Shown here piece after piece: positions 24,801-27,800 of a stretch of 39,693 nucleotides of DNA. Made by a program: the position numbers. This DNA comes from a virus, in the UHGV virus genome UHGV-0150678; one strand, 5' to 3'. Numbering within the stretch: position 1 is the stretch's first letter; each line of letters starts with the position of its first letter.

Positions 24801-27800
24801 GCTTGGTGGCCCCAAGGTTTTGGATGATGTTTATCGCCCTGTCGAGCGACCGACAGACCCTTATGCGCAAGCTGGAGAAACAATTGGCGGGTATTTAGTT
24901 CCAGGAGTTGGAACGGCAGGAAGCATGGCTATTGGATCACTGGCAGAGGCCGCAAATCAGAAAGGCGATTTCGCACAAAATGCAGCTAAAAATGCCGGAG
25001 TTAACCTTGCCGCTCAGGGTGTTCTTTCCGCAGCAGCAAAGGGAATAGGGCGTGGAATAACGGCTATAAAAGGTGATATTGCGCCAGAAGTGGCGAAGAA
25101 AATTGCCACATCAGAATCGATGGGCGTGACACCAATGACATCTGATGTTATCCCGCCGAAAAATGCTTTCACTCGCGGACTTACTCAGGATGCTGAGGGG
25201 GCTTTGCTCGGGACAGGCTCAAAGCGAGCTGAGCAATATGCAACGCGTAGTAAGCTGGTAAGCAATTATTTTGACCGTTTTGGTGAGTACAACCCTGATG
25301 ATGTGGTGAAATCTCTTACCACCACGTTAAGGGGGCGGAAGGATGCCGCTGGCGCTGTTATCAATGACGTCACCAATAAAATGGGTAATGCCGCAGTTGA
25401 TACCACAAATACCATGAATGCTCTGAATACAGCGATCGCAAGACAGGAACGGCTTGGGACGTCTGCCAATCAAAGCCTGCTTACATCCTTGCGTAACCTG
25501 CGTGAAGAATTAGCAAACCCTGCAACTGATTTGGATGTTACGTTTGATCTCTTGCGTCAGCACAGAACAGCATTTAGATCTAATGTTCAGGGAGATGCTA
25601 TGGTCTTCCCCAACCAGGCAAAAGCAGCTACCAATATGGTAGAGAATGCAATGTCAAAAGACCTTCGTAACGCAGTTGCAAAAAACCTCGGTGCGTCAGA
25701 CGCAGCAAAATACCTTAAAGCAAATTCCGATTATGCAAACGTTTATAATAAGGTGCTTAATAAAAACATTGCTAACAAGCTCAACAAGGCAAGCAGTGAA
25801 GCCAGTCCTGAACTTATAAATACTGTTGTATTAAGCAGAAAACCATCTGACGTGAAACGAATCTGGAGCGCATTGGATGATAAAGGGAAAGATGCTATGC
25901 GTGCAGCTTACGTCAGCAAAATAGCGGAAAAGGCCGGGGACTCTCCAGCCAAGTTCATCACTGAAGTTAATAAGCTGAAATCTCAGTCAGGCGGTGAAAT
26001 TTACAACACTATTTTTTCTGGAAAGCACATGAAAGAGCTTGATGCTCTTCATGAAGTTCTACAGCAAACAGCAAGGTCAGACACCGCAAATGTAGTAACT
26101 CAGACGGGGCAATCGCAAGCCAACAGGATAAGGACGATTGGCGCAACTGCGACCCTTGGCGTATCAATGGGGCTTGAGGCTGGTTTTGGTGCAATGATGC
26201 GCTTGTATGAGTCCAAAGCAGCAAGGAATGCTCTCTTACGTCTGGCAAACACTAAAGCTGGAACGCCAGCCTATGAAAGAGCGTTGAGTAACGCTGCAAA
26301 TGCCATCAGGCCGCTGCTTGCTACTGAGGCAACACAGCAGTAACGTATGGGAAATTGGATTCAATCGCTAACATTTTCTTTTTACTTTTCCAACAAAAGC
26401 TTTGGTTGAATCCATATTTCCATAACCGGAAATGGTTTTTGACATTAAAACTGTTCCAGTAGGATGTATTACCCATGAGTCGATAACGCGTTGAGTTTCG
26501 CCATTCGCGCCGATTCCTATGATGGAGTTTTTAGACAATGCTTTGTAAGCCATGCCGCCCGCATCTGTCCCAGAATATGTGATGCTGGCATCTTCACCGT
26601 TTGTCTTAATGATGAATGTTCCACTAAAACCATCTTCTTCCGGATGGAAATTATTTCGTTCTGAATAGCTTATTCCGCGCATATCTCCAACGACCCAGCA
26701 CTCTGCTGTAGCCCCAAAAGATATGAATAAGAACATAGCAGTAAGAAATTGCTTCACACCAACCTCCTTAGTTTTGCGCAGGATACCATGAAAAAAGTTA
26801 ACATTGGAAACGTACCAAAGATGCTCGTTCCGCTCTTTGAGAGCGGTACAATTGTGTTTTGTAGAGACTTTCCAGAATGGCAACGCCTGCATCAAAAACT
26901 TGGCGTTGACGTGCATGACTCGGACGCCAACGGAGCGTCTCATACAATGAGTAGCGAGAATGGTGTTTTGCATGTGATAGGCGTGTTCAATGGCAAACTA
27001 TCTACTATTGCCCATGAGTGCGCTCATATGGCATTCGATATCTGCTCAAGGGTAGGTGTTGATGTTGAACCAGGAAGAGCCAACGAGACTTACTGCTACT
27101 TAATGAGCAGGCTTGTTGAGTTCTGCGAGCGACATATCAGAAAGCCGGAGTGACCCGGCTTGATTATTACTTTTTGCTGTCTGGAGTTCGCTTATCCAAT
27201 ACCCAGCCATGACCTGGCTTTGTTGTTGGTGGAAGCCTTTCGTTGTCCTTGACGGTTGCAAAATTGTCTTTCTTACCGCCGCGTGGGCCAACTTCTTGGT
27301 ATATTCCGCCGTTTTTTCCTGTGTTTTCACCTGGTTTTTTCGCCATGATATACCTCAACATACACCCGTTATTGGGCGATTAAATATTGATCTCATTTTG
27401 TAAGTAGTCAATATGGCCCAGGTAAATGCAAAAATTAACCCACCTTCAGGTGGGTTTTTTGTACAAATCCTTCAGCGTATCAAACACCATCTTCTTAACA
27501 AGCTCTGACTGCTCATCAGCGATGCGTTCCGCATCGTCTCGATAGCCTGAAATTTTGGATGGCTTTGATACAGCATCAGTCACTATCTGAACTAATTCTG
27601 AATTAAGAGAGCGGCCATTGGATTTGGCTCGCTGTTTTAGTTTTTCCTTTAATTCGTAAGGTAGCCGCAGATTAAATTGCGGGTCATCTCTTCCCATTCT
27701 TGATGCCTCGCTTTTGTGAGTGGATCGGCATCTTATTATCTGCTGGTTGCATCCTCAATAAGACCACAGTGGTCTCTTTGTTTGATTAATAATGCATCAC

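What the first reader, a model, noticed from the sequence alone, without database searches (positions are those of the whole stretch)
26368..27697. sieA/immI slot holds an unusual three-gene cluster with Mnt but no arc or ant
Between ejection gene gp16 and the tailspike, P22 carries sieA and the immI genes mnt-arc-ant. Here Mnt is clearly present with operator-like palindromes upstream, but arc and ant are absent. Instead there is a divergent pair, a secreted 129-aa protein with a strong SD and a 121-aa HExxH-motif protein, plus a YjzC-like 59-aa gene downstream of mnt. A signal-peptide protein made in lysogens suggests an envelope-acting exclusion function; Mnt may have been repurposed to regulate something other than antirepressor. 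Functions are unassigned.
Basis: partly seen in the sequence, partly recalled or inferred. Interest (0 to 1): 0.55.

Follow-up and report, generated by a model that had tools for sequence, protein, structure and literature searches.

The report
Ordinary mosaic "ant moron" of P22-like prophage
The genes are real, but this is a common reshuffled version of a well-described variable region of P22-like prophages: two of the three "unusual" genes are also in phage P22, a lone Mnt repressor without its antirepressor is long known, and only the small secreted protein in the sieA position is an uncharacterised (but not rare) gene.

Summary
All four ORFs exist at the stated coordinates, and arc, ant and sieA are absent from the whole window. 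The "unusual cluster" reading fails. This is the published "ant moron" of P22-like phages, here in a CUS-3-like E. coli K1 prophage.

- **hkcC and orf59a:** the HExxH gene is hkcC and the 59-aa gene is orf59a. Both are in P22 itself (98% aa identity), next to sieA-mnt-arc-ant. They also travel as a convergent pair in siphovirus prophages.
- **Mnt:** Mnt plus operator fused directly to the tailspike gene is the phage L/ST64T arrangement. It occurs in 106 of 5426 complete E. coli genomes.
- **orf129:** only the 129-aa gene is a cassette difference. It replaces sieA exactly at the start codon, inheriting the same Shine-Dalgarno (SD) site and upstream leader. It is one of at least 12 unrelated, almost always membrane or secreted, cassettes found there, and occurs in 143 of 5426 genomes.

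orf129 is a conserved periplasmic beta-barrel (mature-part dN/dS about 0.12). It has a homolog in Sf6 (gp38) beside the repressor gene. Its function is unknown; a lysogen-expressed envelope protective role is inferred from position only.

Mnt is under purifying selection and has an altered specificity (Gln6 with AGACCAC half-sites). That specificity is shared with phages that carry full mnt-arc-ant sets, so Mnt is most likely an orphan trans-acting guard.

Interest is low to moderate.

The parts
24502..26343 (+). gp16-type DNA ejection protein gene; left boundary of the variable region
   Evidence: ORF. PGAP annotation and the Pfam Phage_P22_gp16 family appear in related loci.
26368..26757 (-). 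orf129: secreted 129-aa protein (111-aa mature beta-barrel) occupying the sieA cassette slot
   Evidence: Matches phrog_2651 at E 2.9e-61. The AlphaFold model has pLDDT 86 and shows an 8-9-strand barrel. Cys20 and Cys129 are conserved. Mature-part dN/dS is 0.11-0.13. The homology boundary with P22 and HK620 falls exactly at the GTG start codon.
26763..26769 (-). Shine-Dalgarno AAGGAGG of the cassette gene; shared with P22 sieA and HK620 hkcB
   Evidence: Sequence; alignment; conserved in 80 of 80 viral loci.
26780..26809 (-). Candidate promoter for the cassette gene (TTCCAA-18-TGgTATCCT, extended -10). It lies in the segment that the P22 record annotates as PsieA.
   Evidence: Promoter scan. 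The P22-pbi PsieA feature maps to about window 26788-26818. This is a consensus match only; expression was not tested.
26788..27153 (+). hkcC: 121-aa HExxH protein, co-oriented with the late operon
   Evidence: 98% identical to HK620 HkcC and to the unannotated P22 ORF. Matches phrog_1365 at E 6.6e-39. Invariant residues include H76, E77, H80, D84 and E100 plus several Cys. dN/dS is 0.08-0.13. The AlphaFold model has pLDDT 88. BFVD fold matches include SprT-like and metalloprotease entries.
27142..27161 (.). Hairpin between the convergent hkcC and orf59a genes (bidirectional terminator candidate)
   Evidence: Fold energy is -12.1 kcal/mol, z = -4.2. HK620 annotates it as tORF59A.
27167..27346 (-). 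orf59a: 59-aa basic Gly-rich protein (weak YjzC-like match)
   Evidence: 98% identical to P22 orf59a. Matches phrog_3202 at E 7e-31. Pfam YjzC match is E 1.3e-3, below the cutoff. dN/dS is 0-0.07.
27383..27411 (-). Candidate promoter of orf59a (TTGACT-17-AATATT)
   Evidence: The hexamers are conserved in distant siphovirus loci whose flanks diverge.
27437..27456 (.). Bidirectional terminator hairpin at the 3' end of mnt (t-mnt)
   Evidence: P22 annotates a t-mnt terminator further downstream, between hkcC and orf59a.
27446..27697 (-). mnt: 83-aa Arc/Mnt-family repressor of the Gln6 type
   Evidence: Pfam Arc and Repressor_Mnt hits. 76% identical to P22 Mnt and 92% to ST160 Mnt. dN/dS is 0.09-0.14.
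27730..27758 (-). Pmnt candidate (TTGAGG-17-TAAGAT), in the same position as P22 Pmnt next to the operator
   Evidence: alignment to the P22 mnt-arc intergenic region.
27761..27775 (.). Mnt operator: perfect 7-1-7 palindrome AGACCACAGTGGTCT; the only copy in the window
   Evidence: It aligns with the P22 Omnt site GGTCCACGGTGGACC.
27776..27843 (+). Deletion junction and tailspike leader, homologous to the last ~70 bp upstream of P22 gene 9. arc, sar and ant are missing.
   Evidence: Alignments.
27844..30789 (+). Endosialidase tailspike gene (CUS-3 type); right boundary of the variable region
   Evidence: 98.8% identical to the CUS-3 siaK1 region.

Best explanation
This is the 'ant moron', the variable accessory region between ejection gene 16 and the tailspike gene, of a CUS-3-like P22-type prophage of E. 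coli K1. It is in one common mosaic configuration built from three independently assorting modules.

**Module 1, the cassette slot (shown).** A conserved leader (candidate PsieA promoter plus SD AAGGAGG) drives whichever gene is joined to it at the start codon. Here that gene is orf129 rather than sieA.

Inferred for orf129: the protein is exported by Sec and cleaved after Ala18. It folds as a soluble 111-residue beta-barrel closed by a Cys20-Cys129 disulfide. It is made in the lysogen and acts in the periplasm as a protective factor. That could mean blocking DNA delivery by related phages, or neutralising another periplasm-acting attack. Its biochemical target is unknown.

**Module 2, hkcC plus orf59a (shown).** This conserved convergent pair is also present in P22 and in siphovirus prophages. 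hkcC points with the late operon. orf59a has its own conserved promoter.

Inferred for module 2: HkcC is a small zincin-like metal-binding protein or protease made late in infection.

**Module 3, orphan Mnt (shown).** mnt keeps its operator and its Pmnt promoter, while arc-sar-ant are deleted and the Pant hexamers have decayed. This is the same arrangement as in phage L and ST64T.

Inferred for Mnt: it is still a working repressor with altered specificity (Gln6, AGACCAC half-sites). It autoregulates, and it silences in trans the antirepressor promoter of incoming or co-resident phages of the same immI type.
For: **Identity of the region**
- Window 26755-27545 is 97% identical to P22.
- P22 and HK620 annotations match the gene order.
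- The intact HkcC ORF in P22 is 98% identical, and so is orf59a.
- PMC2629481 names the region and lists hkcC and 59a in P22. It also lists mnt-only forms in ST64T and ST104.
- The host context is argW-int-neuO-endosialidase.

**Cassette slot**
- Homology with P22 sieA and HK620 hkcB starts exactly at the GTG start codon, with the SD and upstream sequence shared.
- In 80 viral loci the slot holds 12 unrelated families. 79 of the 80 loci start with a hydrophobic N-terminus. orf129 is the first gene in 11 of 80 and SieA in 13 of 80.

**orf129**
- A family of 89 clusters at 50% identity, all about 125-135 aa.
- Cys20 is invariant and Cys129 is nearly invariant (90% or more of sequences).
- Confident barrel model.
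- Mature-part dN/dS is 0.11-0.13, while the signal peptide diverges.
- Sf6 gp38, between the repressor gene and PL, is a full-length homolog: 27% identity, E 3e-12, same PHROG family.
- In other prophages it is co-directional with mnt and a Rap1a-family periplasmic immunity protein.

**hkcC-orf59a pair**
- The same convergent pair occurs in Klebsiella, Rosenbergiella and metagenomic siphovirus prophages. The orf59a promoter hexamers are conserved there.
- orf59a accompanies hkcC in 69 of 80 viral loci.

**Mnt**
- dN/dS is 0.09 against ST160 (dS 0.51) and 0.14 against P22.
- The perfect palindrome and Pmnt are retained in the E. coli, ST160 and phage L lineages.
- Pant hexamers are degraded: TCGGCA / TGCATC against P22's TTGACA / TATATT.
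- Three viral loci have a Gln6-type mnt, the operator AGACCACGGTGGTCT, and arc and ant.
Against: - No expression data were available. The promoters are consensus matches only; the cassette promoter scores 7 of 12 plus an extended -10.
- Distant orf129 homologs are chromosomal singletons outside prophages. The ancestral function therefore need not concern phages.
- Genetics showed that phage L, which has the same Mnt-operator module, has no functional secondary immunity system (cited in PMC8022706). No matching ant-bearing phage was found in E. coli genomes with one query.
Confidence: 0.7

Rival explanations
1. A novel three-gene cluster (secreted protein, HExxH protein, YjzC-like protein) has replaced arc and ant, and Mnt has been repurposed to regulate it.
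For: arc and ant are absent, and the three ORFs lie next to mnt.
Against: hkcC and orf59a coexist with arc and ant in P22. The arc-ant deletion lies on the other side of mnt, between the operator and the tailspike leader. The window has a single operator, and it is not near the three genes. The modules combine freely: orf129 occurs with ant in 7 of 11 viral loci, and the Gln6 Mnt occurs with other cassettes. orf59a has its own promoter behind the mnt terminator.
Confidence: 0.05
2. Mnt here is a functionless remnant of a decayed immI region, kept only because too little time has passed since the deletion.
For: The Pant hexamers have decayed. Phage L with the same module lacks functional secondary immunity, and its authors raise the remnant possibility (PMC8022706). 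HK620 shows further decay to mnt and ant remnants.
Against: dN/dS is 0.09 over dS 0.51 between the E. coli and ST160 alleles, both of which lack arc and ant. The perfect palindromic operator and Pmnt are conserved across E. coli, ST160 and L. The arrangement is present in 106 E. coli genomes and in 49 viral loci.
Confidence: 0.2
3. The retained Mnt-operator complex mainly tunes tailspike expression. Sitting 68 bp upstream of gene 9, it would block or terminate transcription entering the tailspike gene in the lysogen or late in infection.
For: The operator-to-tailspike spacing is constant across loci. The operator hairpin followed by CTTTGTTTGA scores as terminator-like. PMC2629481 notes that the P22 ant moron influences read-through into gene 9 and that Mnt and Arc may take part.
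Against: The hairpin is weak: -8.7 kcal/mol, z = -1.9. ST160 and L lack the T-tract. No convincing plus-strand promoter lies upstream of the operator; the best match is 7 of 12.
Confidence: 0.12
4. orf129 is an orphan immunity or inhibitor protein against periplasm-acting antibacterial enzymes (T6SS peptidoglycan hydrolases, lysozyme-type enzymes, bacteriocins). On this reading it is not a phage-exclusion protein.
For: In other prophages it directly follows a Rap1a-family T6SS-immunity gene in the mnt transcription direction (Pfam E 9.7e-15). The family is widespread as chromosomal singletons, as known periplasmic inhibitor families are. It is a small disulfide-closed periplasmic barrel.
Against: No sequence relationship to MliC/PliC (hhalign probability 3%). 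No effector gene sits next to any homolog examined. The slot and the Sf6 position are otherwise known for anti-phage genes (SieA, PMC10883804; BstA in this window).
Confidence: 0.2
5. The small ORFs are spurious, or are broken pieces of ant or sieA.
For: None was found.
Against: No similarity to SieA, Ant, Arc or HkcB. dN/dS is 0.0-0.14 for all four genes. Homologs extend down to 27-60% identity at conserved length. The structure models are confident.
Confidence: 0.02

Closest known systems
The 'ant moron' / immI-sieA region of P22-like phages (Villafane et al. 2008, PMC2629481; P22, HK620, CUS-3, epsilon34)
   Same: Same position between gene 16 and the tailspike gene. The hkcC, orf59a and mnt genes are the same (97% DNA identity to P22 over 26755-27545). 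The leader in front of the sieA-slot gene is the same. The mosaic behaviour is the same.
   Different: sieA is replaced by orf129. arc, sar and ant are deleted. The Mnt N-terminus and the operator are of a different specificity type from P22.
Phage L / ST64T / ST104 / ST160 / SE1 mnt-only immI remnant
   Same: Gln6-type Mnt, an AGACCAC-N-GTGGTCT operator, Pmnt, and direct fusion to the tailspike leader without arc or ant.
   Different: L has orf62 and lacks hkcC, orf59a and any sieA-slot gene. The window has an 11-bp longer junction and an E. coli endosialidase tailspike.
P22 SieA superinfection exclusion protein (Leavitt et al. 2024, PMC10883804)
   Same: Same genomic slot, same SD and upstream leader, same orientation. 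Both are envelope proteins presumed to be made in lysogens.
   Different: SieA is a 3-TM inner-membrane protein of about 164 aa with an FxRYPxEAxxFNK motif. orf129 is a soluble periplasmic beta-barrel with a cleavable signal peptide and no sequence similarity.
Shigella phage Sf6 gene 38 protein and Salmonella phage Emek orf129 (phrog_2651)
   Same: Same protein family. Emek is 97% identical and in the same slot. Sf6 gp38 is 27% identical over its full length, with the same ECW N-terminus and the same C-terminal FVG-V-G-C.
   Different: Sf6 gp38 lies in the immunity region between the repressor gene and PL, not in the ant moron. None of these proteins has a known function.
Small zincin / SprT-like phage metalloproteases
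   Same: HkcC has an invariant HExxH on a helix preceded by a beta-sheet, and an invariant Glu exactly 20 residues after the second His, the spacing I recall for thermolysin-type gluzincins (from memory). BFVD fold matches include entries named SprT-like and Metalloprotease.

Membership tests
P22 immI secondary immunity system (mnt-arc-ant-sar) | Mnt repressor (Arc-like ribbon-helix-helix N-domain plus Mnt tetramerisation C-domain) | tested here: met
   Pfam Arc E 2.8e-22 and Repressor_Mnt E 2.2e-18. 76% identity to P22 Mnt.
P22 immI secondary immunity system (mnt-arc-ant-sar) | Palindromic Mnt operator adjacent to Pmnt | tested here: met
   AGACCACAGTGGTCT at 27761-27775 aligns with P22 Omnt. 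TTGAGG-17-TAAGAT lies at the Pmnt position. Binding was not tested.
P22 immI secondary immunity system (mnt-arc-ant-sar) | Antirepressor gene ant under Pant | tested here: not met
   No Ant homolog in the window (tblastn with P22 and CUS-3 Ant). The Pant hexamers have decayed.
P22 immI secondary immunity system (mnt-arc-ant-sar) | Arc repressor gene and sar antisense RNA | tested here: not met
   The only Arc-like hit is Mnt itself. No Rfam match in 26000-28200 beyond terminator-like noise. The junction alignment shows arc-sar-ant deleted.
Moron (independently expressed accessory gene block inside a phage operon) | Inserted in the late operon, variable among relatives, with its own promoters and terminators, and not needed for morphogenesis | tested here: met
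   The position and variability hold across 80 loci. Candidate promoters and terminators were found. Non-essentiality is inferred from its absence in Sf6.
SieA superinfection-exclusion proteins | Multi-pass inner-membrane protein with the FxRYPxEAxxFNK motif; sequence similarity to types A, B or C | tested here: not met
   orf129 has no BLASTP similarity to P22 SieA. It has no hydrophobic segment after residue 18 and is predicted to be all-beta.
Sec-exported periplasmic protein | N-terminal n-h-c signal peptide with an A-x-A signal peptidase I site and no lipobox | tested here: met
   MKQFLTAMFLFISFGATA|EC. Ala18 is invariant across the closer homologs examined and the signal-peptidase site pattern holds across the family. 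The hydropathy profile fits. SignalP was not available, so this rests on inspection.
Zincin metallopeptidases (HExxH) | HExxH on the active-site helix plus a third metal ligand; zincin fold; family-level sequence match | tested here: inconclusive
YjzC-like proteins (PF14168) | Score above the Pfam gathering threshold | tested here: inconclusive
   19.4 bits against a cutoff of 25, E 1.3e-3, covering 46 of 55 profile positions.
MliC/PliC periplasmic lysozyme inhibitors | Profile similarity to MliC, including the motifs I recall as SxSGAxY and YxxxTKG (from memory) | tested here: not met
   hhalign of the orf129 family against E. coli MliC gives 3% probability. The MliC sequence used was verified against PDB 2F09. 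No PF09864 hit in 61 members.
Known anti-phage defence systems (PADLOC) | Match to any PADLOC model | tested here: not met
   None of the four proteins matches at E 0.1 or better.

The most novel reading that the evidence does not exclude
The orf129 / Sf6-gp38 family (phrog_2651) may be a new class of periplasmic, disulfide-closed beta-barrel protective proteins. Temperate phages would repeatedly capture such genes from bacterial chromosomes and place them in lysogen-expressed slots. Those slots are the sieA slot, the repressor-proximal slot, and the mnt transcription unit next to a Rap1a T6SS-immunity gene. There the protein would block either DNA delivery by P22-like phages in the periplasm or another periplasm-acting attack. 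Separately, hkcC plus orf59a may be a mobile two-gene system, a late-expressed mini-zincin with a constitutively expressed small basic partner, with a defence or counter-defence role.
Probability: 0.3. Interest if true: 0.55.

Novelty: new member of a known kind. Interest (0 to 1): 0.27.

Why it matters
As submitted, the finding matters little. It re-describes a published mosaic region, and two of its three "unusual" genes are in P22 itself.

Three points remain useful:
- **The sieA position is a cassette slot.** The recombination boundary sits at the start codon. The slot almost exclusively carries membrane or secreted proteins, of which only SieA has a known function. orf129, present in about 2.6% of complete E. 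coli genomes, is a tractable candidate for a new exclusion or immunity mechanism.
- **hkcC-orf59a moves as a pair.** It does so between podovirus and siphovirus prophages, yet has never been studied even though it sits in P22.
- **Orphan Mnt looks functional.** Purifying selection, together with full immI sets of the same operator type elsewhere, argues against the 'decaying remnant' view raised for phage L.

Tried and rejected
- **Degraded ant or sieA fragments:** rejected. BLASTP finds no similarity and selection is purifying.
- **PADLOC, NCBIfam and Pfam** gave nothing for orf129, hkcC or orf59a.
- **PDB profile searches** gave nothing.
- **A second Mnt operator or a hidden ant in the window:** none found.
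- **A matching ant-bearing phage in E. coli genomes,** using the L195 immI as query: none found.
- **Rfam families in the region:** none above noise.
- **The search for related loci with the divergent orf129 alignments** failed for lack of a conserved stretch.
- **Literature searches** for hkcC, orf59a and YjzC returned nothing functional.
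Full report
**1. What is at the coordinates**

The interval 26368-27697 holds four ORFs.

- **orf129** lies on the minus strand at 26368-26757. It has a GTG start, and the Shine-Dalgarno (SD) sequence AAGGAGG sits 5 nt upstream at 26763-26769.
- **The HExxH ORF** is divergent from orf129 after a 30-bp gap. It is 121 aa and lies on the plus strand at 26788-27153.
- **The 59-aa ORF** is convergent with the HExxH ORF, on the minus strand at 27167-27346.
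- **mnt** lies on the minus strand at 27446-27697. It hits Pfam Arc at E 2.8e-22 and Repressor_Mnt at E 2.2e-18.

gp16 ends at 26343 and the tailspike gene starts at 27844. No homolog of Arc (other than Mnt itself), Ant or SieA exists anywhere in the 39.7-kb window. The descriptive part of the finding therefore holds, with two corrections.

- There is a single operator-like palindrome, AGACCACAGTGGTCT at 27761-27775. No second copy with 2 or fewer mismatches exists.
- The YjzC assignment is below Pfam's threshold: 19.4 bits against 25.

**2. Where the window comes from**

The 1.6-kb region is 98-100% identical in 11 complete E. coli chromosomes. In strain 4750 it lies in a P22-like prophage next to an acyltransferase gene, intS and tRNA-Arg. 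The tailspike-to-integrase segment is 98.8% identical to phage CUS-3. It includes the K1 endosialidase gene and the neuO heptanucleotide repeat. CUS-3 itself carries a different set of genes between gene 16 and the tailspike: hkcB, two unknown genes, two mnt-like genes and ant.

**3. Two of the three 'unusual' genes are ordinary P22 genes**

Window 26755-27545 is 97% identical to P22.

- The P22 record annotates sieA, orf59a, mnt, arc and ant.
- The 366-bp gap between sieA and orf59a in P22 encodes an intact protein 98% identical to the window's HExxH protein. That P22 protein is identical to HK620 HkcC.
- The 59-aa protein is 98% identical to P22 orf59a.
- Villafane et al. 2008 (PMC2629481) call this region the 'ant moron'. 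[quoted passage not shown]

hkcC and orf59a therefore did not replace arc and ant. They lie on the other side of mnt and coexist with arc and ant in P22.

**4. Mnt without arc and ant is a known arrangement**

The mnt-tailspike intergenic region has two parts.

- Its left part is homologous to the P22 mnt-arc intergenic region, which carries the operator and Pmnt.
- Its right ~70 bp is homologous to the leader of P22 gene 9.

This amounts to a clean loss of arc-sar-ant. The same structure, with the same Gln6-type Mnt N-terminus and an AGACCAC-C-GTGGTCT operator, is found in ST160 and in phage L; megablast shows the same mnt-to-gp9 match in SE1. PMC2629481 reports mnt-only morons in ST64T and ST104. 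[quoted passage not shown]

Frequency:
- The junction is present in 106 of 5426 complete E. coli genomes.
- 21 of 80 hkcC-bearing viral contigs have it.
- 49 viral loci have the operator flanked by mnt and a tailspike gene.

**5. Is Mnt alive?**

Evidence for a working gene:
- dN/dS is 0.09 against ST160 (dS 0.51) and 0.14 against P22. Both the window and ST160 lineages lack arc and ant.
- The operator is a perfect 7-1-7 palindrome in all lineages examined.
- On the minus strand, TTGAGG-17-TAAGAT occupies the exact position of P22 Pmnt, abutting the operator.

By contrast, the Pant hexamers have decayed. P22 has TTGACA and TATATT; the window has TCGGCA and TGCATC.

From memory, the base-contacting residues of Mnt are Arg2, His6, Asn8 and Arg10. 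Among these only residue 6 differs (His to Gln). The half-site changes from AGGTCCAC to AAGACCAC.

Three viral loci (L161, L195, L201) carry the operator AGACCACGGTGGTCT next to arc and a P22-type ant. L195 and L201 show an intact Gln6-type mnt, while L161 holds only a partial mnt-like match. This specificity class therefore exists as a complete immI system elsewhere.

My reading is inference, not demonstration. The orphan Mnt is a functional autoregulated repressor. It can silence the antirepressor promoter of incoming phages of the same immI type, which protects the resident lambda-type CI repressor from anti-repression.

Rivals are a functionless remnant (about 0.2) and control of transcription entering the tailspike gene (about 0.12). 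The operator hairpin plus T-tract scores as terminator-like, but weakly. One query found no matching ant-bearing phage in E. coli genomes. That weakens the trans-immunity idea but does not exclude it.

**6. The one real cassette difference: orf129 in the sieA slot**

Alignment of the window, P22 and HK620 shows homology beginning exactly at the start codon of the minus-strand gene. The GTG, the SD and everything upstream are shared. That shared segment includes the stretch that the P22 record labels PsieA, where I find TTCCAA-18-TGgTATCCT. The coding sequences behind it (sieA, hkcB, orf129) are unrelated.

Across 80 IMG/VR loci the leader is conserved in all 80. The first gene behind it falls into 12 unrelated families:

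| First gene in the slot | Loci (of 80) |
|---|---|
| Lipoprotein (orf161) | 18 |
| SieA | 13 |
| orf129 | 11 |
| HkcB-like type 1 | 8 |
| HkcB-like type 2 | 6 |
| Seven other families | 24 |

In 79 of the 80 loci the protein begins with a signal peptide, lipobox or transmembrane segment. PMC10883804 reports that only 22 of 66 P22-like phages carry sieA.

orf129 is thus one of many alternative envelope cassettes. It occurs in 143 of 5426 complete E. coli genomes, and in phage Emek and ST-35. It combines freely with ant-containing and ant-less right-hand sides.

**7. What orf129 is**

- **Export signal.** It has a Sec-type signal peptide, MKQFLTAMFLFISFGATA|EC. Ala at position -1 is invariant across the closer homologs examined, and there is no lipobox.
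- **Start site.** PGAP's 122-aa call starts at Met8 and loses the n-region. The homologs support the 129-aa start.
- **Fold.** The mature 111-residue protein is hydrophilic (GRAVY -0.33). AlphaFold models it confidently (pLDDT 86) as an up-and-down barrel of 8-9 strands.
- **Disulfide.** Cys20 is invariant and Cys129 is nearly invariant (90% or more of sequences). I infer that they tie the two ends of the barrel together.
- **Selection.** Mature-part dN/dS is 0.11-0.13, while the signal peptide is highly diverged.
- **Family size.** An exhaustive HMMER search finds 89 clusters at 50% identity, nearly all 122-148 aa.
- **Annotation.** No Pfam domain is found in any of 61 members. There is no PDB sequence match and no PADLOC match.
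- **Rejected relationship.** A link to MliC/PliC lysozyme inhibitors was tested and rejected.

Genomic context gives three clues.

- Sf6 gene 38 is a full-length homolog: 27% identity, E 3e-12, same PHROG family. It lies between the repressor gene and PL. In this very window, the slot immediately downstream of the repressor gene holds the BstA abortive-infection gene.
- In other prophages an 87%-identical allele directly follows mnt and a Rap1a-family gene on the same strand. The Rap1a match is Pfam E 9.7e-15. Rap1a proteins are periplasmic immunity proteins against T6SS peptidoglycan hydrolases (PMC3533786, PMC3852654).
- The roughly 30%-identical members examined are mostly chromosomal singletons with no phage genes or effector genes nearby.

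I therefore commit to a lysogen-expressed periplasmic protective protein. I place roughly equal weight on exclusion of P22-like phages at the periplasmic stage of DNA delivery and on neutralisation of another periplasm-acting attack. My overall confidence that the function is protective at all is about 0.5. None of this is shown experimentally.

**8. hkcC and orf59a**

HkcC is a real protein. dN/dS is 0.08-0.13, and homologs extend to about 55% identity in Klebsiella, Rosenbergiella and metagenomes.

- **Conserved residues.** Invariant or nearly invariant residues include H76, E77, C78, H80, D84, C86, N99, E100, T101 and C103.
- **Secondary structure.** The model (pLDDT 88) places HExxH on a helix that follows a beta-sheet. 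E100 starts the next helix, 20 residues after H80. This is the spacing I recall for thermolysin-type gluzincins.
- **Fold matches.** Foldseek against BFVD finds 25 phage proteins at E 1e-3 or better. A few are named SprT-like or Metalloprotease.

'Small zincin-like metal-binding protein, possibly a protease' is as far as the evidence goes.

A new observation concerns the distant homologs. In all four distant loci examined they are followed by a convergent orf59a homolog (76-81% identity). The orf59a promoter hexamers are conserved, and a hairpin sits between the two genes. These loci are siphovirus prophages, with the pair inserted between the tail-tube or chaperone genes and the tape-measure gene. 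hkcC always points with the structural operon and orf59a always points against it. orf59a accompanies hkcC in 69 of 80 P22-like loci. The two genes are therefore a mobile pair rather than a P22 peculiarity. Their function is unknown.

**9. Verdict**

The region is a routine recombinant of modules that are individually known and individually common. I file it as a new member of a known kind: another cassette in the P22-like ant moron. I score interest at 0.27.

The residual value lies in three testable leads:
- the orf129/Sf6-gp38 family;
- the hkcC-orf59a pair;
- the evidence that orphan Mnt is maintained by selection.

Noticed in passing
window 1840-2745 (minus), downstream of the lambda-type cI gene at 2832-3545: A 301-aa ORF in the rexAB position matches the BstA abortive-infection family (phrog_6287, E 6e-133). 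It has no Pfam hit. By my reading of the translations, the immunity region carries a lambda-like CI repressor (237 aa) and a lambda N-like protein.
   Followed up: partly
window 30946-31003: A perfect 7-bp tandem repeat of 8.3 copies (unit TCAAGAC, equivalent to AAGACTC) lies at the 5' end of an acyltransferase gene. It matches the phase-variable neuO poly-psi repeat of CUS-3, which has 19 copies.
   Followed up: partly
L075 5001-5563, L077 5001-5556, L078 5001-5526 (Klebsiella, Rosenbergiella and metagenomic siphovirus prophages): hkcC and orf59a occur as the same convergent pair inside the tail-gene operon of long-tailed prophages. The orf59a promoter hexamers are conserved there. This identifies the pair as a mobile two-gene module.
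   Followed up: partly
L014-L017 4399-5390: In other P22-like prophages with full arc-ant, mnt is followed on the same strand by a Rap1a-family gene (T6SS peptidoglycan-hydrolase immunity; Pfam E 9.7e-15) and then by an orf129 allele. A prophage would thus carry an orphan interbacterial-competition immunity gene in the mnt transcription unit.
   Followed up: partly
L013 (Sf6) 26068-26472: Sf6 gene 38, an unannotated protein between the repressor gene and PL, is a full-length homolog of orf129 in the same PHROG family.
   Followed up: yes
window 26737-26757; L003 6069-6437: RefSeq/PGAP annotates the secreted protein as 122 aa starting at Met8. That removes the charged n-region of the signal peptide. 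The SD-preceded GTG and the homologs support 129 aa.
   Followed up: yes
L080-L159, position about 3970 (just upstream of hkcC): The sieA slot behaves as a cassette site with the recombination boundary at the start codon. There are 12 unrelated gene families behind one conserved SD and leader, and 79 of 80 loci encode a protein with a hydrophobic N-terminus. Most of these families have no known function.
   Followed up: partly
L195 2102-3707 and L201 6926-8531: A complete mnt-arc-ant set, with a Gln6-type Mnt (137 aa, different C-terminus) and the operator AGACCACGGTGGTCT, lies next to Ig-domain and tail-chaperone-like genes. These appear to be non-P22-like phages. The immI module therefore also moves between phage types.
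   Followed up: no
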